The notes under the pieces are model-generated. The model saw only the letters and a list, made by a program, of their open reading frames with translations. It was not told the DNA's origin and did no database searches. A stretch of DNA of 64,000 bases, taken from assembly GCF_056712565.1 (NCBI RefSeq), contig NZ_CM160072.1. One strand, written 5' to 3'. Positions 24,174 to 46,289 of this stretch are shown in pieces. The position numbers and the translations under genes are program-made. How positions within the stretch are numbered: the stretch's first letter is position 1; every line of letters begins with the position of its first letter.

Positions 24174-24283
24174 GTTTATTCTCTTTCTGAATATAAAAAT
24201 GAACCCTCAACGCTTCCCTCAATGTTTCGGGAGCCATGCGGGTTCAATCATACACGGGAAGCGAGGCGCTTCCCATCACGTTA

Positions 24284-25402
24284 TTATTTTTCAACCTGCT
24301 GAACGTCAATTCGACGCGCTTCGTCCAGCTGACTGGCTTTCGCACGAATGCGCGCTTCCAGCTGATCGATCATATCGTTGTTGTCCAGACGGTCTTTGCG
24401 CACGCCATCTTCATAGAGGCCGCTTTTCTTGTTGCCGCCAGTGACGCCGAGTGTAGAAACCAGCGCCTCACCAGGGCCATTCACCACGCAGCCGATAATC
24501 GAAACGTCCATCGGAGTGATGATATCTTCCAGGCGTTGCTCCAGCGCGTTAACCGTACCGATAACATCAAATTCCTGACGCGAACAGGTCGGGCAGGCGA
24601 TGAAGTTGATCCCGCGCGAACGGATACGCAGCGATTTCAAAATATCGAAACCGACTTTGATCTCTTCGACCGGATCGGCCGCCAGCGATACGCGCAGCGT
24701 GTCGCCGATGCCTTCAGACAGCAGCAGACCTAAACCAATAGCGGATTTTACTGCCCCGCTACGCGCACCACCGGCTTCGGTGATCCCCAGATGCAGCGGC
24801 TGATCGATTTGTTTTGCCAGCAAACGATAAGACTCAACAGCGAGGAAGACGTCAGACGCTTTCACGCTGACTTTGAACTGATCGAAGTTCAGGCGATCGA
24901 GATGATCAACATGACGCATGGCAGATTCCAGCAACGCCTGCGGCGTCGGTTCGCCATACTTTTCTTGCAGATCTTTTTCCAACGATCCGGCATTAACGCC
25001 AATACGGATCGGAATGTTTTTATCGCGCGCACAGTCAACCACCATGCGAATACGCTCTTCATTACCGATATTGCCAGGGTTAATACGCAGACAATCGACG
25101 CCGTATTCCGCTACTTTCAGCGCAATGCGATAGTCGAAGTGGATGTCAGCCACCAGCGGCACGTTAACCTGCTGTTTGATGAGTTTGAACGCTTCTGCCG
25201 CGTCCATCGTCGGTACGGAGACACGGACGATATCAGCGCCAACACGTTCCAGCGCCTTGATTTGATTGACCGTTGCTTCGACGTCTGTCGTACGCGTATT
25301 GGTCATGGACTGTACGGCGATGGGAGCACCATCGCCAATCGGCACATTCCCAACGTAAATACGTGTTGATTTTCTACGTTGAATTGGAGCCTGGTTATGC
25401 AT
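24284..25402 (-). CDS. ispG: 4-hydroxy-3-methylbut-2-en-1-yl diphosphate synthase (IspG/GcpE)
   Basis: 372 aa, [36 protein letters not shown]...; Cys ligands CPTCSR...C....C. Confidence 0.95.
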
Positions 25403-37109: not shown

Positions 37110-37425
37110 TATTATCCACTGCGGCCCTTTCCGCCGTCTCGCAAGCGGGCGCTGGCTTAAGGAAAGGATGTTCCGCGACCGTTAGGGCAAGCGCGTCTCA
37201 GCGCTTGCTATCGCGGCAATATCGCCAGTGGTGCTGTCGTGATGCGGTCTTCGCATGGACCGCACAATGAAGATACGGTGCTTTTGTATCGTACTTATTG
37301 TTTCTGGTGCGCTGTTAACCGAGGTAAATAATAACCGGAGTCTCTCCGGCAACAATTTACTGGTGGTTAACAACCTTCAGAACAGCAAGTAAGCCCGAAT
37401 GCCGCCCTTTGGGGCGGCATGTTTT
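37110..37425 (+). ncRNA. ryfA: Candidate RyfA-type small RNA locus in the sseA-sseB spacer (boundaries approximate)
   Basis: About 450 bp with no ORF of 60 aa or more. Possible promoter TTGTCA-N16-TATTGT near 37073-37101. Terminates in a strong plus-strand hairpin with T-run at 37397-37425. From memory, ryfA occupies the sseA-sseB spacer in E. coli; the 5' end is a guess. Confidence 0.3.
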
Positions 37426-39683: not shown

Positions 39684-39884
39684 TTACTCGGCCTCGTCAA
39701 GCCAGACCAACAAAATCGCTTCGAGGATTTTCTCGTTGGATGCCTGCGGGTCGTCGTCGAAATCTTCCAGATCGCAAATCCACTGATGCATATCGGTGAA
39801 TCGAACCGTTTTCGGATCAAGATCGGGATACGCATCGTACAGTGCTTCGCCAATTTCGCGGCTATCCGTCCACTTAAGTCCCAT
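39684..39884 (-). CDS. iscX: Fe-S assembly protein IscX
   Basis: 66 aa, [36 protein letters not shown]... Confidence 0.9.
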
Positions 39885-39895
39885 ACTAACCTCTG

Positions 39896-40231
39896 TTAAT
39901 GCTCACGCGCATGGTTGATAGTGTAACGCGGGATTTCGACCACTAAATCTTCGTCGGTAACGCGCGCCTGGCAGCTTAAACGGCTTTCCGGCTCCAGTCC
40001 CCAGGCTTTGTCCAGCATGTCGTCTTCCTGCTCTGAGCTTTCCGGCAGCGAGTCAAAACCTTCACGAACGATGCAGTGGCAGGTGGTGCAAGCACAGGAT
40101 TTTTCACAGGCGTGTTCAATCTCGATACCGTTACGCAGCGCAACGTCGAGAATGGTTTCACCACTATTCGCTTCCAGAACAGCGCCATCAGGGCAGAGAT
40201 CCTGATGAGGCAAAATAACAATCTTTGGCAT
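39896..40231 (-). CDS. fdx: [2Fe-2S] ferredoxin of the isc cluster
   Basis: 111 aa, [53 protein letters not shown]... Confidence 0.95.
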
Positions 40232-40232
40232 A

Positions 40233-42083
40233 TTAAACCTCGTCCACGGAATGGCCTTTCAGCGCACGACGAACCGACTGGTCCATGCGGCGAGCGGCGA
40301 AATCCTGGGTTTGTTTGTCTACGTTTTTAATCGCTTGTTCGATGGCGTCAACATCATCGCCCTGCGCCACTTCACTCAGGTGAGCGGCAGCATCGTCAAT
40401 GACCTGACGCTCTGCGGCGCTTAACAGCGCGGCATCAGCAGCCAGCGCGCCGTGCAGACTTTCCAGCACACGCGCCGCTTCTACTTTTTGTTCTGCCAGC
40501 ATTCGGGCTTTTACGTCCTGCTCGGCATAGCTCATTGAGTCTTTAATCATCGAGGCGATTTCGCTGTCGGTCAGGCCATAAGAAGGTTTGACCTGAATAG
40601 ACGCCTCAACGCCGGTGGATTTCTCCATCGCCGTCACGCTCAAAAGACCGTCGGCATCGACCTGGAACGTCACGCGAATATGCGCGCCGCCAGCCGGTAG
40701 CGCCGGGATACCACGCAGTGCAAAACGCGCCAGCGAGCGGCAGTCCTGCACCAGTTCACGCTCACCCTGCATTACATGGATAGACATCGCCGTCTGACCA
40801 TCTTTAAAGGTGGTGAAATCCTGGGCGCGAGCCACCGGAATCGTGGTATTACGCGGAATCACTTTCTCCACCAGGCCGCCCATCGTTTCGAGGCCCAGCG
40901 ACAGTGGGATCACATCAAGCAGCAGCATTTCGCTGTCTGGCTTGTTACCCACCAGAATATCCGCCTGAATCGCCGCGCCAATAGCGACGACTTTATCCGG
41001 GTCGATGGAAGTCAGCGGTGGACGACCGAAAAATTCGCCTACCCGTTCACGCACCAGCGGCACGCGAGTAGAACCGCCCACCATCACCACTTCCAGCACT
41101 TCATCAGCTTCTACACCCGCGTCTTTCAGCGCGCGACGACAAGCCAGTAAGGTTCGTTTTACCAGTGGCGCGATCAGTTCATTGAATTGTTCACGGCTGA
41201 TTTCGCCCTGCCAGCCCGCAACGTTAACGGTCACGGAGTCCGCATCACTCAGCGCGATTTTGGCCGCAATGGCGGCATCCAGCAGTTCACGCTGAACGCG
41301 GTTATCGCTACGATCAGGAATGCCCGCCTGCTCGCGAATATAATCCGCCAGCAGATGGTCGAAATCATCGCCGCCGAGCGCGGAATCACCGCCGGTTGCC
41401 AGCACTTCAAACACGCCGCGACTTAAGCGCAGAATGGAAATATCAAACGTCCCGCCGCCGAGGTCATAAACGGCGATCACGCCTTCCTGACCGGAATCCA
41501 GCCCGTAGGCGATAGCCGCAGCGGTCGGTTCGTTAAGTAAGCGCAGAACATGCAACCCCGCCAGACGCGCCGCGTCTTTGGTGCCCTGACGCTGGGCATC
41601 GTCAAAGTACGCCGGAACGGTGATAACTACACCATCCAGCTCGCCTGCCAGGGCTTCAGTTGCCCGCGCCGCCAGTGCTTTGAGGATGTCCGCAGAAACG
41701 CGCACCGGGTTCAGCAGCCCCGCCGCCGTTTCAATCATCGGCAGGCCATTTTCGCTGGCCTGGAATTGATAAGGCAGATGCGGATAGCGTTGCTGGATAT
41801 CAGCCAGCGAGCGCCCCATCAGGCGTTTAACAGAACTAATGGTGTTGGCGGTGTCGAGCGCTGCGTTAGTACGCGCGTCATAACCCACCGAATGCCCTTG
41901 CTGTTGATAGTGAACAACAGATGGCAACAGGTGACGGCCTTCATGGTCAGCTAACGTTTCGGCCTGACCGCTGCGCACTGTCGCCACCAGCGAGTTGGTT
42001 GTGCCCAGGTCAATACCGGCCGCCAGACGACGCTGATGCGGCGCAGCACTCAAACCAGGTTCACTAATTTGTAATAAGGCCAT
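40233..42083 (-). CDS. hscA: Fe-S cluster chaperone HscA (Hsp70 family)
   Basis: Translation from [34 protein letters not shown]... (616 aa). ATG at 42081-42083; the track ORF has an 18-codon extension. Confidence 0.95.
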
Positions 42084-42099
42084 GTTTAGCTTCCAGAAA

Positions 42100-42615
42100 T
42101 TAAAAATCGAGCAGTTTTTCTTCGAGTTGTTCGGCACTGCTTCGCAGTTTATCGAGAAAACGCAGCTTACGCACGGTATCCGCCGCCGCGTCCCACGTCT
42201 CGTTGTCTAACTGTTCAACCATCAACTGATGGCGGGTATCAAACATCTTTTTCACACGTTTGATAAAGCTTTCCAGCCGCGCTTCATCTTTCGCCTGTTC
42301 GATCTCGTCCAGTTCTTCGCGCAGCTCCAGCTGTTCCATCAGGAACGCGGTGTCGCGCACAGTATGCTGCTCACTGGCGAGATCAAAACCGTGCAAAGAA
42401 AGCAAATATTCCGCGCGCATTAACGGATGACGCAGCGTTTGCCAGGCCTGGTTAATGGTTGCAGATTGCTGTACGGCGGCGAGTTGTTCCGCCTGGCTTC
42501 CGCTGGCGAATTTATCAGGATGATACTGACGTTGTAGATCCTGAAAACGCAGGCTCAGCGCCTGGGTATCGAGTTGATAACGGGCAGGCAAGCCAAAGAG
42601 GGTGAAGTAATCCAT
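42100..42615 (-). CDS. hscB: Co-chaperone HscB (J-domain)
   Basis: 171 aa, [36 protein letters not shown] (J-domain HPD motif). Confidence 0.95.
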
Positions 42616-42710
42616 AACATTCTCAGGGCTGCGATCCGCCGCGATAACGGCGAATCAGGTAAAACAAACCCCACGCGCAGGCGACCACGGTGGGGTTATC
42701 GGTATGCGCA

Positions 42711-43034
42711 TCAAACGTGGAAGCTTTCGCCGCAACCACACTCATCTTTGACGTTCGGGTTGGTGAATTTAAACCCTTCGTTAAGGCCTTCTTTGACGAA
42801 GTCCAGCTGCGTACCGTCCAGAAATTGCAGGCTTTTGCCATCGACCACGACTTTCACGCCTTTGTCTTCAAACACGATGTCTTCCGGCGTCGGTTCGTCA
42901 ACAAATTCCAGTACATAAGCCATACCTGAACACCCGGAGGTTCTCACGCCCAGACGCAGGCCAAACCCTTTACCGCGGTTAGCCAGAAAGGTATTTACTC
43001 GCGCTGCTGCACTGTCGCTCAGTGTAATCGACAT
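42711..43034 (-). CDS. iscA: Fe-S cluster insertion protein IscA (A-type carrier)
   Basis: 107 aa from [30 protein letters not shown]...[13 protein letters not shown] at 43032-43034. Confidence 0.95.
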
Positions 43035-43050
43035 AACCAAACCTCAACTC

Positions 43051-43437
43051 TTATTTTGCTTCACGTTTGCTTTTATAGTCCGCAATGGCGGCTTTGATCG
43101 CGTCTTCTGCCAGAATAGAACAGTGAATTTTCACCGGCGGCAGTTCAAGTTCTTCAGCAATATCGGTGTTTTTGATCGCCTGTGCTTCGTCGAGAGACTT
43201 CCCTTTCACCCATTCGGTGACCAGGGAGCTGGAAGCGATAGCGGAACCGCAGCCGTAAGTTTTAAAACGCGCGTCTTCAATGATACCTTCATCGTTGACT
43301 TTAATCTGCAACTTCATCACGTCGCCACAGGCCGGTGCACCCACCATGCCGCTGCCGACGTTCTCGTCGTTGTTGTCAAAGGAACCCACGTTACGCGGAT
43401 TCTCGTAATGGTCGATAACTTTTTCGCTGTAAGCCAT
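43051..43437 (-). CDS. iscU: Fe-S cluster scaffold IscU
   Basis: 128 aa, MAYSEKVIDHYENPRNVGSFDNNDENVGSGMVGAPACGDVMKLQI... Confidence 0.97.
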   Translation of the reverse strand: MAYSEKVIDHYENPRNVGSFDNNDENVGSGMVGAPACGDVMKLQIKVNDEGIIEDARFKTYGCGSAIASSSLVTEWVKGKSLDEAQAIKNTDIAEELELPPVKIHCSILAEDAIKAAIADYKSKREAK

Positions 43438-43464
43438 TATAAATTCTCCTGATTCCGATACCGA

Positions 43465-44679
43465 TTAATGATGAGCCCATTCGATGCTGTTCAGATCCAC
43501 GCCCTGCTTGTACATTTCCCACAGCGGAGAAAGGTCACGCAGACGACCGATGGATTTACGAACTAACTCGATGGTGTAGTCGATCTCTTCTTCAGTAGTA
43601 AAACGACCTAAAGAGAAACGGATAGAGCTATGTGCCAGCTCGTCGTTCAGCCCCAGCGCGCGCAGCACGTAGGACGGTTCGAGGCTTGCTGACGTACAGG
43701 CGGAACCTGAAGAAACCGCGAGGTCTTTCAGCGCCATAATCAGCGACTCACCTTCAACGTAGTTGAAGCTGACGTTGAGAATGTTCGGCGCACCGTGTTC
43801 CAGGTCACCGTTCAGGTAAACTTCTTCGATATCTTTGATGCCGTTCCACAGACGGTTACGCAGGCCGCGCAGACGTTCCATCTCGGTCGCCATCTCTTCT
43901 TTTGCGATGCGATAGGCTTCGCCCATACCGACGATCTGGTGAACAGGCAGAGTGCCGGAACGCATACCGCGCTCGTGACCGCCGCCATGCATTTGTGCTT
44001 CGATACGTACGCGCGGTTTACGACGCACATACAGCGCACCAATACCTTTCGGGCCATAGATTTTGTGACCGGAGAAAGACATCAGGTCAACTTTCAACTG
44101 GCTCAGGTCGATAGGCAGTTTGCCCACGCTCTGGGTTGCATCAACGTGATAGATAATGCCACGAGCACGGCACATTTCGCCGATAGCCGCGATATCCTGC
44201 ACCACGCCGATTTCGTTATTTACGTGCATGATGGAAACAAGGATGGTGTCGTCACGCATCGCTGCTTCGAGTTCTTTCAGGTCGATAATGCCATTACGCT
44301 GCGGTGCCAGGTAAGTGACTTCAAAACCTTCGCGCTCCAGCTGACGGCAGGTATCCAGTACCGCTTTATGTTCGGTTTTACTGGTGATGATGTGCTTGCC
44401 TTTTTTCTGATAAAAGTTGGCTGCACCTTTGATCGCCAGGTTGTCAGATTCGGTTGCACCAGAGGTAAAGACGATTTCACGCGGATCAGCGCCGACCAGA
44501 TCGGCAATCTGATTACGGGCGATATCTACCGCTTCTTCAGCCTGCCAGCCGAAACGGTGAGAACGGGAGGCCGGGTTACCAAAGGTTCCGTCCATCGTCA
44601 TAAACTGCATCATTTTCTCGGCAACACGCGGGTCCACCGGCGTGGTTGCGGAGTAGTCGAGATAAATCGGTAATTTCAT
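43465..44679 (-). CDS. iscS: Cysteine desulfurase IscS
   Basis: 404 aa from [26 protein letters not shown]...; PLP Lys in [12 protein letters not shown], catalytic SSGSACTS. The track ORF has an 8-codon extension. Confidence 0.97.
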
Positions 44680-44790
44680 TGCTCTATAAACTCCGTACAT
44701 CACTCAATGCAAGGAACCAGGCTACCGGCTGGATGTACGACCGTGTTTACGGAGTGTTTAGCACTCCGGCCTGATTCTGAATTCTTTTTA

Positions 44791-45279
44791 TTAAGCGCGT
44801 AACTTAACGTCGATCGCGTCTTGTGTGCGGGTGCGTGGCGCGTCGTGAGTATGCTGACGACCAGACACATCCAGCACTTCCTGGTTATTAACCAGTTCGC
44901 CTAAAGTAATGTTATTGAGAAAACCGGTAAGACGGTCGCTCAAATCACGCCACAGCGCGTGGGTCAGGCATTTATCGCCGCCCTGGCAGCCGCCTTTACC
45001 CTGACAACGGGTGGCATCTACAGATTCGTCAACGGCGCTAATCACTTCGCCAACGGCGATGCTGCTGGCATCTTTGCCTAACAGATAACCACCGCCTGGT
45101 CCACGTACGCTGGAAACCAGACCATTTTTACGCAGACGGGAAAACAGTTGTTCCAGATAAGAAAGGGAAATTCCCTGACGTTCGGAAATATCAGCCAACG
45201 GTACCGGGCCCGCTTCAGAGTTGAGCGCAACGTCAAGCATTGCGGTCACGGCATAGCGCCCTTTAGATGTCAGTCTCAT
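44791..45279 (-). CDS. iscR: Fe-S cluster regulator IscR (Rrf2 family)
   Basis: 162 aa, [55 protein letters not shown]...; cluster-ligand cysteines present. Confidence 0.95.
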
Positions 45280-45362
45280 GTCTTACTTCACCTCAAACTC
45301 GCCCCTGCCCGGGGTTTTTTATTGTAAAAGTGGGGGTATTGCATAGCAGGGTCAAGTCTGAC

Positions 45363-45412
45363 ATTCCCGAGTAAATTGGTCAACTATTTACTTGACTGAT
45401 TTAGTCGGGTAT
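45363..45412 (-). promoter_or_regulatory. Tandem IscR type-1 operator sites in the iscR promoter
   Basis: Minus strand reads AAATAGTTGACCAATTTACTCGGGAAT and ATACCCGACTAAATCAGTCAAGTA, matching my recollection of the ATASYYGACTRwwwYAGTCRRSTAT IscR motif, located about 85-135 nt upstream of the iscR ATG. Confidence 0.5.
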
Positions 45413-45455
45413 TTAACCTTCAGTGCCATTTTTTATCGTGGCGTTTGTACCTGTT

Positions 45456-45541
45456 GTCGGATGCGGTGTGAACACCTTATCCGACCTGGGATTCCGTGCA
45501 CTTACAGGCCTGATAAGACGCGTTAAGCATCGCATCAGGCA
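45456..45541. repeat. BIME / REP pair between trmJ and the iscR promoter
   Basis: gtcggatgcggtgtgaacaccttatccgac and aggcctgataagacgcgttaagcatcgcatcaggc. Confidence 0.55.
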
Positions 45542-45548
45542 ACCACTG

Positions 45549-46289
45549 TTATTCGGCCTTGTTACCTTTATTCTGCTGCTCAATAGAAGCCAGAATCCCG
45601 CGCAGGATATTCAATTCCTGGCTTTCCGGGCGTGCACGGGTAAACAGACGGCGCAATTTATTCATCACCTGCCCCGGATGGTTTTCACGGATAAAACCGG
45701 TTGCCAGCAGCGTTTGCTCCAGATGACCATAAAAACGCTCCAGATCATCGACCAGCGGATACGGCGTCTCTTCATGCTCGACCTGCTCGCCATTTTCCTG
45801 AGTTGCCAGCCAGGCCATGCGCACTTCATAGGCAATAACCTGAACCGCCATCGCCAGGTTCAGCGAACTGTATTCCGGGTTAGCCGCAATCGCGACATGA
45901 TAATGGCATTTCTGCAACTCTTCATTGGTCAAGCCGACGCGCTCGCGACCAAACACCAGCGCCACCGGGGTATTTGCCGCTTCAGCGACGCTTTTCAGAC
46001 CGCATTCGCGCGGGTCGAGCATCGGCCACGGCAGCGTGCGGGAGCGAGCGCTGGTGCCCACCACCAGACTACAACCGGCTAACGCTTCGTCGAGCGTATC
46101 GACGATGTGAGCATTACCAATCACATCGCTGGCCCCTGCTGCCAGGGCAATCGCCTGGGAGTCTGGTTTCACTAGTGGATTAACCAGCCACAGATTGGTT
46201 AATCCCATTGTTTTCATGGCACGGGCAACAGAACCCATATTGCCGGTGTGTGACGTCTCCACCAGCACAATTCGAATATTTTGCAGCAT
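45549..46289 (-). CDS. trmJ: tRNA (cytidine/uridine-2'-O)-methyltransferase TrmJ (SPOUT family)
   Basis: 246 aa, [30 protein letters not shown]... Confidence 0.9.

What the first reader, a model, noticed from the sequence alone, without database searches (positions are those of the whole stretch)
45363..45412. Conserved tandem IscR operator sites upstream of iscR
Two adjacent matches to the type-1 IscR motif are present where autoregulation of the iscRSUA operon is known to occur, indicating the Fe-S homeostasis circuit is intact.
Basis: partly seen in the sequence, partly recalled or inferred. Interest (0 to 1): 0.25.

Follow-up and report, generated by a model that had tools for sequence, protein, structure and literature searches.

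The report
Known IscR operator of E. coli iscR
The two adjacent 25-bp motifs are the well-known pair of binding sites through which the iron-sulfur sensor protein IscR shuts off its own operon in E. coli; they are real, strongly conserved and textbook-ordinary.

Summary
Confirmed and already known. The window is E. coli chromosome (iscRSUA-hscBA-fdx on the minus strand). Read on the minus strand, 45412-45388 is ATACCCGACTAAATCAGTCAAGTAA (1 mismatch to the published type-1 consensus). 45387-45363 is ATAGTTGACCAATTTACTCGGGAAT (3 mismatches). The next-best 25-mer among 127,952 positions has 7 mismatches, and 100 shuffles gave no match. A PWM built only from non-iscR type-1 sites ranks the two sites first and second (about 22 bits; next best 12.5). 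The 50-mer is identical in K-12. The surrounding 100 bp is at least 99% identical in 5,421 of 5,424 matching E. coli genomes. In 80 species found through the IscR protein, the proximal site is always present. The two best hits in each locus lie exactly 25 bp apart in 73 species. Conservation falls to background outside the sites, apart from an adjoining TGnCAnACT (extended -10). The -35 hexamer lies inside the proximal site, so bound IscR should block RNA polymerase; that step is inferred here and taken from the literature. IscR is intact (C92, C98, C104, H107, E43), as are the downstream genes and the iscRS RNA element. Nothing is novel in E. coli. Minor leads are the near-invariant 25-bp register and a third in-register site in a few other genera.

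The parts
45388..45412 (-). Distal type-1 IscR site ('site A'): ATACCCGACTAAATCAGTCAAGTAA. Its outer half-site is of the CC kind and its inner half-site of the TT kind. Inferred position is about -65 to -41.
   Evidence: One mismatch to the consensus. It scores 22.2-22.5 bits with the non-iscR PWM, rank 1 in the window. Identical in K-12. A site in this register is present in about 76 of 80 species. Mean information content is 1.15 bits per column against 0.14 in the flank.
45363..45387 (-). Proximal type-1 IscR site ('site B'): ATAGTTGACCAATTTACTCGGGAAT. It contains the -35 hexamer, the whole spacer and the T of the extended -10 TG. Inferred position is about -40 to -16.
   Evidence: Three mismatches to the consensus. 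It scores 22.0-22.1 bits, rank 2 in the window. A proximal site is present in 80 of 80 species. Mean information content is 1.51 bits per column. Apart from one base, it matches the iscRB oligo used for [2Fe-2S]-IscR binding assays in PMC12594620.
45378..45383 (-). -35 hexamer TTGACC, embedded in the left half-site of site B.
   Evidence: Read directly from the sequence. These columns are near-invariant in 81 sequences. The same TTGACC was assigned as -35 from a primer-extension-mapped start site in P. aeruginosa (PMC3899308).
45355..45363 (-). Extended -10: TG (45363-45362), n, then the -10 hexamer CAGACT (45360-45355), 17 nt after the -35.
   Evidence: Counts in 81 sequences: T25 79, G26 79, A29 77, T33 80. 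Conservation then falls to about 0.1 bit. The element aligns with the P. aeruginosa -10 CATAAT (PMC3899308). The simple promoter scan missed it because the hexamer matches only 3 of 6 positions.
45347..45348 (-). Inferred transcription start, 7-8 nt after the -10, giving a 5' UTR of about 68 nt.
   Evidence: Inference from the promoter geometry only.
44791..45279 (-). iscR coding sequence (162 aa), encoding the repressor that binds the sites.
   Evidence: ORF. RefSeq annotation of an identical region. The protein is identical to K-12 IscR, with E43, C92, C98, C104 and H107 present.
44681..44790 (-). iscRS intergenic 'iscR stability element', the RyhB-responsive structure.
   Evidence: Rfam RF01517, 136.5 bits (gathering score 40), full-length match.
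39684..44679 (-). Downstream genes of the regulated operon: iscS 43465-44679, iscU 43051-43437, iscA 42711-43034, hscB 42100-42615, hscA within ORF 40233-42137, fdx-size ORF 39896-40231, iscX-size ORF 39684-39884.
   Evidence: ORFs. iscS, iscU, iscA and hscB coordinates match the RefSeq annotation of an identical region. The hscA, fdx and iscX names rest on operon order and ORF size, not on an annotation or family search here.

Best explanation
This is the autoregulatory operator of the E. coli iscRSUA-hscBA-fdx operon. It consists of two abutting 25-bp imperfect palindromes, each of which binds one dimer of the Rrf2-family repressor IscR in its [2Fe-2S] form. The proximal site (45387-45363) contains the -35 hexamer, the spacer and the first base of the extended -10 TG. 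A bound dimer should therefore exclude sigma-70 RNA polymerase. The distal site (45412-45388) covers the region just upstream, about -65 to -41, where the alpha C-terminal domains normally dock, and it adds to repression. [quoted passage not shown] When clusters are scarce or oxidised, holo-IscR falls, the sites empty and the operon is derepressed. Shown here: the sites exist, they are far above chance, they are identical to those of the experimentally studied strain, and they are under strong purifying selection in a fixed register with the promoter elements. Taken from the literature: dependence of binding on holo-IscR, and repression in vivo. Inferred: the exact start site and the steric mechanism.
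For: Motif significance: (1 and 3 mismatches against a next best of 7; about 22 bits against 12.5 with a PWM that uses no iscR-promoter site). Identity to K-12. Conservation in E. coli: at least 99% identity over 100 bp in 5,421 of 5,424 matching genomes. Conservation across species, with loci found through the protein and not the motif: 80 of 80 species have the proximal site. In 73 of 80 the two best hits in the whole 2.8-kb locus lie upstream of iscR and exactly 25 bp apart, and in 2 of 80 they lie 26 bp apart. Footprint: 0.14 bits per column in the flanks, 1.15 and 1.51 in the sites, then a conserved TGnCAnACT, then 0.10. The repressor gene is intact with all cluster ligands. Literature: type-1 sites at isc, erpA and nfuA bind holo-IscR and are all repressed (PMC8593673, PMC5040110, PMC8561392). 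[2Fe-2S]-IscR binds the iscRB site in vitro and represses PiscR-lacZ up to 32-fold (PMC12594620). Orthologous sites A and B in P. aeruginosa were footprinted at -67 to -43 and -42 to -18 from a mapped start site, and mutating site B abolishes repression (PMC6599224, PMC3899308). The erpA site has its GGG at -21 to -19, so it spans -40 to -16, the same geometry as inferred here (PMC5040110).
Against: Nothing contradicts it. The limits are as follows. No binding or expression data can be produced with these tools. The -10 hexamer is weak (CAGACT, 3 of 6), and the generic promoter scan called no promoter. A PWM built from only the two P. aeruginosa nfuA and tpx sites did not single the sites out (ranks 19 and 110). 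The published minor 'site C' could not be located: the best downstream candidate, 45315-45339, scores only 4.8 bits.
Confidence: 0.95

Rival explanations
1. The same operator works as one cooperative unit rather than as two independent sites. The two IscR dimers would contact each other or share the junction, so the abutting 25-bp register would itself be functional.
For: The distal-to-proximal spacing is exactly 25 bp in 73 of 80 species and 26 bp in 2. In the same loci the flanks are randomised and the distance from the proximal site to the ATG ranges from 62 to 215 nt. In 7 of 79 species a third site sits in the same 25-bp register, against about 0.015 expected. The 50-mer is a quasi-palindrome about the junction: the reverse complement of the distal site matches the proximal site at 19 of 25 positions (sequence). 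In P. aeruginosa, binding at site B lowers the IscR concentration needed to protect site A (PMC6599224).
Against: PMC6599224, citing Giel 2013, states that E. coli IscR binds either site independently. With no linker, most indels would destroy one site, so a fixed spacing may reflect only selection on each site separately. A centre-to-centre distance of 25 bp is about 2.4 helical turns, which puts the dimers on different faces of the helix (inference). Rheinheimera tolerates 26 bp, and four species manage with the proximal site alone.
Confidence: 0.2
2. The two palindromes are chance matches, or generic AT-rich promoter sequence with no specific regulatory role.
For: None beyond the general fact that promoters are AT-rich and that the generic promoter scan called nothing here.
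Against: No match in 100 shuffles. There is a gap from 1 and 3 mismatches to 7 in 127,952 positions. The margin over the next-best PWM hit is about 10 bits. The phylogenetic footprint has sharp edges at the site boundaries.
Confidence: 0.01
3. The sites are used mainly by a different regulator, for example another Rrf2-family protein such as NsrR, or by cluster-less apo-IscR as at type-2 sites, rather than by holo-IscR.
For: Rrf2-family operators are all AT-rich palindromes of similar length, and the sequence alone cannot show which protein form binds.
Against: The sites match the type-1 consensus and not the type-2 consensus, which has no match at 3 or fewer mismatches anywhere in the window. 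Each site carries a TT half-site, the feature reported to disfavour apo-IscR through E43 (PMC8561392). The same motif lies upstream of the other holo-IscR targets erpA and nfuA. The motif stays linked to iscR in 80 of 80 species. The published assays use holo-IscR on this site (PMC12594620).
Confidence: 0.02

Closest known systems
E. coli K-12 PiscR type-1 IscR sites A and B (Giel et al. 2006, 2013; Schwartz et al. 2001)
   Same: The 50-bp sequence is identical, and so is the promoter and 5' UTR down to the ATG. The IscR protein and the operon order are also identical.
   Different: Nothing differs inside the operator. Upstream of it, this strain has one A fewer in an A-run (near 45427-45433) and fewer REP copies, so the iscR-trmJ intergenic region is 269 bp against 451 bp in K-12.
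P. aeruginosa PAO1 iscR promoter sites A and B (PMC3899308, PMC6599224)
   Same: Two abutting 25-bp type-1 sites. Site B holds the -35 TTGACC, and its first ten bases, ATAGTTGACC, are identical. The spacing is also 25 bp, and the -10 lies just after site B.
   Different: The -35 to -10 spacer is 18 nt and the -10 is CATAAT, against 17 nt, an extended TG and CAGACT here. Its site A is weaker (68% of consensus). Binding was reported as stepwise or cooperative, whereas E. coli binding is cited as independent. It has no site C and no RyhB site.
Single type-1 IscR sites of E. coli erpA and nfuA
   Same: Same consensus: ATACTTGAACGAAATACCAGGGTAT upstream of erpA and ATAACCAACTAAAATAGTCAACTAT upstream of nfuA. 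Both are repressed by holo-IscR (PMC5040110, PMC8593673). The erpA site spans about -40 to -16, like the proximal iscR site.
   Different: They are single sites rather than a tandem pair, and they do not control the repressor's own gene.
Type-2 IscR sites (hyaA, sufA, ydiU)
   Same: Bound by the same protein, and they also overlap the -35 region.
   Different: They have a different consensus (AWARCCCYTSnGTTTGMnGKKKTKWA), which has no match in this window. They bind apo-IscR and can activate transcription. The -35 lies in the right half-site (PMC8561392), whereas here it lies in the left half-site of the proximal site.

Membership tests
Type-1 IscR binding site | Match to the 25-bp imperfect palindrome ATASYYGACTRWWWYAGTCRRSTAT, well above genomic background | tested here: met
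   1 and 3 mismatches, with the next best at 7 and none in shuffles. About 22 bits against 12.5 with a PWM built only from non-iscR sites.
Type-1 IscR binding site | Located in the promoter of an Fe-S biogenesis gene and overlapping the core promoter elements, so that binding represses | tested here: met
   The sites lie 84-133 nt upstream of the iscR ATG. The -35 TTGACC lies inside the proximal site, and the extended -10 adjoins it. This geometry is conserved in 81 sequences. The start site itself is inferred, not measured.
Type-1 IscR binding site | A TT dinucleotide in one half-site where type-2 sites have CC, which is the basis of holo-form specificity through E43 | tested here: met
   The proximal site has ATAGTTGAC. 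The inner half of the distal site reads TTACTTGAC on the other strand. The criterion comes from PMC8561392. IscR E43 is present.
Type-1 IscR binding site | Bound by [2Fe-2S]-IscR with much higher affinity than by apo-IscR | not testable with these tools
   Literature only. PMC12594620 measured holo-IscR binding to an iscRB oligo that matches the proximal site except for one base (Kd in the tens of nM). The window sequence is identical to K-12.
Type-1 IscR binding site | IscR-dependent repression of the downstream gene in vivo | not testable with these tools
   Literature only: PiscR-lacZ is repressed up to 32-fold (PMC12594620). Derepression in delta-iscR strains is reported for Yersinia (PMC4055776) and P. 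aeruginosa (PMC3899308).
Tandem A+B iscR autoregulatory operator | Two abutting sites upstream of iscR, conserved with the gene | tested here: met
   Loci were found through the IscR protein. 73 of 80 species have the pair at exactly 25 bp and 2 of 80 at 26 bp. L041 has its two best hits 50 bp apart with a weaker site between them. Four species have only the proximal site.
Type-2 IscR binding site | Match to AWARCCCYTSnGTTTGMnGKKKTKWA | tested here: not met
   No match at 3 or fewer mismatches anywhere in the window.

The most novel reading that the evidence does not exclude
The near-invariant 25-bp register of the sites across four gammaproteobacterial orders, together with a third site in exactly the same register in a few genera (Pantoea, Siccibacter, some Vibrio), could mean that IscR dimers assemble side by side as a phased array. 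The number of operator units (1, 2 or 3) would then tune the steepness or set-point of Fe-S feedback in each lineage. This would run against the view that the E. coli sites act independently.
Probability: 0.15. Interest if true: 0.3.

Novelty: already known. Interest (0 to 1): 0.08.

Why it matters
For this window it matters only as annotation. It marks the promoter and operator of the main Fe-S cluster assembly operon and shows that the feedback sensor and its DNA targets are unaltered in this strain. The cross-species tabulation adds little beyond that. It shows that the proximal site and its fixed relation to the -35 and the extended -10 are universal in the sample, and that the distal site is near-universal. 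It also shows that the number of operator units varies from one to three between lineages, which might interest people who model Fe-S homeostasis set-points.

Tried and rejected
(1) The generic sigma-70 scan of 45200-45600 found no promoter. I do not take this as evidence against a promoter: the -10 (CAGACT) matches only 3 of 6 and fails the tool's threshold, while the conserved TG extension and the A2 and T6 positions support it.

(2) A PWM built from only the two P. aeruginosa nfuA and tpx sites did not discriminate (the sites rank 19 and 110). Two sites are too few. Adding E. coli erpA and nfuA gave a clean result.

(3) I tried to read Giel 2013, Mettert & Kiley 2024, Nesbit 2009, Rajagopalan 2013 and Schwartz 2001. 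None is held. A full-text search for the site sequences found nothing. The E. coli footprint limits and start site therefore rest on secondary citations and inference.

(4) I looked for the published minor 'site C'. No type-1-like match lies in register downstream (45338-45362 scores -20.7). The best downstream candidate, 45315-45339, scores 4.8 bits. Site C was not located.

(5) I looked for a third site upstream in E. coli. 45413-45437 scores -13.3, so it is absent.

(6) 5' UTR hairpin as a structured RNA element: four conserved GC pairs but only one compensatory change, and the fold is no better than shuffles (z = +0.95). Not pursued further.

(7) Type-2 motif: no match in the window.

(8) Scores of 8 bits or more at offsets of 12-13 bp from the true sites are artefacts made by pairing the inner half-sites of neighbouring palindromes. 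They are not additional sites.

Full report
**1. What is at the coordinates**

The window is E. coli chromosome. The 269-bp iscR-trmJ intergenic region (45280-45548) is 100% identical to strain ATCC 11775 and to other listed strains, and it matches 5,425 of 5,426 complete E. coli genomes. RefSeq annotation of the identical region gives hscB, iscA, iscU, iscS, iscR and trmJ on the minus strand and suhB on the plus strand, which agrees with the ORFs in the window. iscR is 44791-45279 on the minus strand, so the finding (45363-45412) lies 84-133 nt upstream of its ATG.

Read in the gene's orientation, the 50 bases are two abutting 25-mers:
- ATACCCGACTAAATCAGTCAAGTAA (45412-45388, the distal site, 'site A')
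- ATAGTTGACCAATTTACTCGGGAAT (45387-45363, the proximal site, 'site B')

**2. Is it more than chance?**

- Scanning with the published type-1 consensus ATASYYGACTRWWWYAGTCRRSTAT (quoted in PMC6599224 and PMC3899308) at up to 3 mismatches finds exactly these two positions in 64 kb. None appeared in 100 shuffles.
- Over all 127,952 25-mers on both strands, the two sites have 1 and 3 mismatches and the next best has 7.
To avoid circularity I built a PWM from four type-1 sites that do not come from any iscR promoter. Two are the DNase-footprinted P. aeruginosa nfuA and tpx sites (PMC6599224). Two are the best consensus matches directly upstream of E. coli K-12 erpA and nfuA. The erpA match contains the GGG whose mutation abolishes IscR control (PMC5040110).
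- This PWM ranks the two sites first and second in the window at 22.1-22.5 bits (z about 5). The next position scores 12.5 bits.
- A PWM from the four P. aeruginosa sites gives 23.1 and 19.5 bits against 11.7.
- A PWM from only the two P. aeruginosa nfuA and tpx sites was too weak to discriminate (ranks 19 and 110). I record this as a failed variant.
- The stated refutation criterion, a poor PWM score relative to background, is therefore clearly not met.

**3. Conservation**

- The 50-mer is identical in K-12 MG1655. The alignment from just upstream of the distal site to the ATG shows one difference, a single A in an A-run upstream of that site.
- The 100 bp around the operator is at least 99% identical in 5,421 of the 5,424 genomes that match. 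The rest of the intergenic region is more variable: 1,704 genomes fall in the 90-95% band and only 3,989 cover at least 80% of it. Part of this is variable REP content.
- For an unbiased cross-species test I retrieved loci through the IscR protein, not the motif. This gave 80 species from Enterobacterales, Vibrionales, Alteromonadales and Aeromonadales.
- With the non-iscR PWM, the two best hits in each ~2.8-kb locus lie upstream of iscR and exactly 25 bp apart in 73 of 80 species, and 26 bp apart in the two Rheinheimera.
- In Candidatus Pantoea persica (L041) the two best hits are 50 bp apart with a weaker site between them.
- Four species (Tolumonas L070, Bowmanella L074, Ferrimonas L075, Aeromonas schubertii L080) have only a clear proximal site.
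- The proximal site scores at least 8 bits in all 79 loci profiled. The eightieth, L038, scores 20.5 bits.

**4. Footprint and promoter geometry**

- I anchored all loci on the proximal site without gaps. Mean information content is 0.14 bits per column in the upstream flank, 1.15 in the distal site and 1.51 in the proximal site.
- Immediately after the proximal site comes a conserved T-G-n-C-A-n-A-C-T. Counts in 81 sequences are T25 79, G26 79, A29 77 and T33 80. Conservation then drops to 0.10.
- That pattern is an extended -10 (TGn) followed by a -10 hexamer that keeps the diagnostic A2 and T6.
- In the window this gives: -35 TTGACC at 45383-45378, inside the left half of the proximal site; a 17-nt spacer; TG at 45363-45362; and -10 CAGACT at 45360-45355.
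- The inferred start is near 45347-45348. That places the proximal site at about -40 to -16 and the distal site at about -65 to -41.
- Two external points fit. In P. aeruginosa, a primer-extension-mapped start gives -35 TTGACC and -10 CATAAT in the same columns, with sites at -42 to -18 and -67 to -43 (PMC3899308, PMC6599224). The E. coli erpA site, with GGG at -21 to -19 (PMC5040110), spans -40 to -16.
- The generic promoter scan called nothing because CAGACT matches only 3 of 6 positions.

**5. Mechanism**

- Literature: [2Fe-2S]1+-IscR binds the iscRB site with a Kd in the tens of nM and represses PiscR-lacZ up to 32-fold. Oxidation or loss of the cluster relieves this (PMC12594620).
- Literature: in P. 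aeruginosa, mutating site B abolishes repression and mutating site A has a minor effect (PMC6599224).
- Shown here: both sites carry one TT-type and one CC-type half-site, in the order CC|TT||TT|CC. This is the feature reported to make type-1 sites unfavourable for apo-IscR through E43 (PMC8561392).
- Shown here: the repressor gene is intact and identical to K-12, with E43, C92, C98, C104 and H107.
- Inferred: a dimer centred near -28 occludes sigma region 4 and the extended -10 contact, and a second dimer centred near -53 occupies the alpha-CTD docking region.
- The rest of the local circuit is present: the isc, hsc and fdx ORFs and the full-length iscRS stability element RF01517.
- suf, fur and ryhB lie outside the window.

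**6. Rivals**

- Chance is excluded.
- A type-2 or apo-IscR reading is excluded at the motif level.
- The only live variant concerns how the two dimers relate. The near-invariant abutting register, in loci where every other distance drifts (proximal site to ATG is 62-215 nt), hints at a phased array. So does a third in-register site in 7 of 79 species, against about 0.015 expected.
- Against this, E. coli binding is cited as independent (PMC6599224, citing Giel 2013), and a zero-length linker makes most indels destructive anyway. I give the cooperative reading about 0.2.

**7. Verdict**

The feature is the already known, experimentally characterised IscR autoregulatory operator, unchanged from K-12. 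Interest is low. Side observations are listed separately.

Noticed in passing
window 45456-45485 and 45508-45540: Two REP-like inverted repeats (GTCGGATGCGGTGT/ACACCTTATCCGAC and GCCTGATAAGACGC/GCATCGCATCAGGC) lie between the trmJ stop and the operator. K-12 has extra copies, so its iscR-trmJ intergenic region is 451 bp against 269 bp here. The length variation lies entirely upstream of the operator.
   Followed up: partly
window 45301-45325: A GC hairpin (CCCC-GGGCA-GGGG) lies in the iscR 5' UTR. On the plus strand it is followed by a T-run, so it looks like an intrinsic terminator for antisense transcription. Its four GC pairs are conserved in 13 Enterobacteriaceae with one compensatory change, but the UTR fold is not better than shuffles (z = +0.95). 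Genera with shorter site-to-ATG distances (Yersinia, Serratia, Vibrio) have a UTR roughly 40 nt shorter, too short to hold it.
   Followed up: partly
window 45339-45347: The block GCTATGCAA starts at the inferred transcription start. It is nearly invariant in 13 Enterobacteriaceae although the bases just before it vary. It could be the published minor IscR 'site C' or a constraint on the initially transcribed sequence.
   Followed up: partly
L017 (Siccibacter), L037 and L041 (Pantoea), L062, L065, L066, L082 (Vibrio, Enterovibrio): the 25 bp immediately upstream of the distal site: A third type-1-like site lies exactly 25 bp upstream of the distal site, scoring 8.5-16.7 bits. It occurs in 7 of 79 species, against about 0.015 expected from the background rate of 1.9e-4 per position. 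It is absent in E. coli, where 45413-45437 scores -13.3.
   Followed up: partly
L070, L074, L075, L080; L077, L078: Tolumonas, Bowmanella, Ferrimonas and Aeromonas schubertii have only the proximal site. The two Rheinheimera species have the pair at 26 bp rather than 25 bp.
   Followed up: no
window 45363-45387 compared with the oligo printed in PMC12594620: The paper prints the iscRB oligo as AAATAGTTGACCATTTTACTCGGGAATGTC. The window and K-12 both read ...GACCAATTTACTC..., a one-base difference in the degenerate W core. This is either a misprint or a deliberate variant. Pseudocitrobacter carries that variant naturally.
   Followed up: no
window 37121-37425 (+) and 24193-24284 (-): Rfam finds the small RNAs ryfA (317.7 bits) and sroE (116.6 bits) elsewhere in the window.
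   Followed up: no
window 45422-45433: An A-run (GATAAAAAATGG on the minus strand) lies just upstream of the distal site. It differs from K-12 by one A and is the only difference between the two strains from here to the iscR ATG.
   Followed up: no
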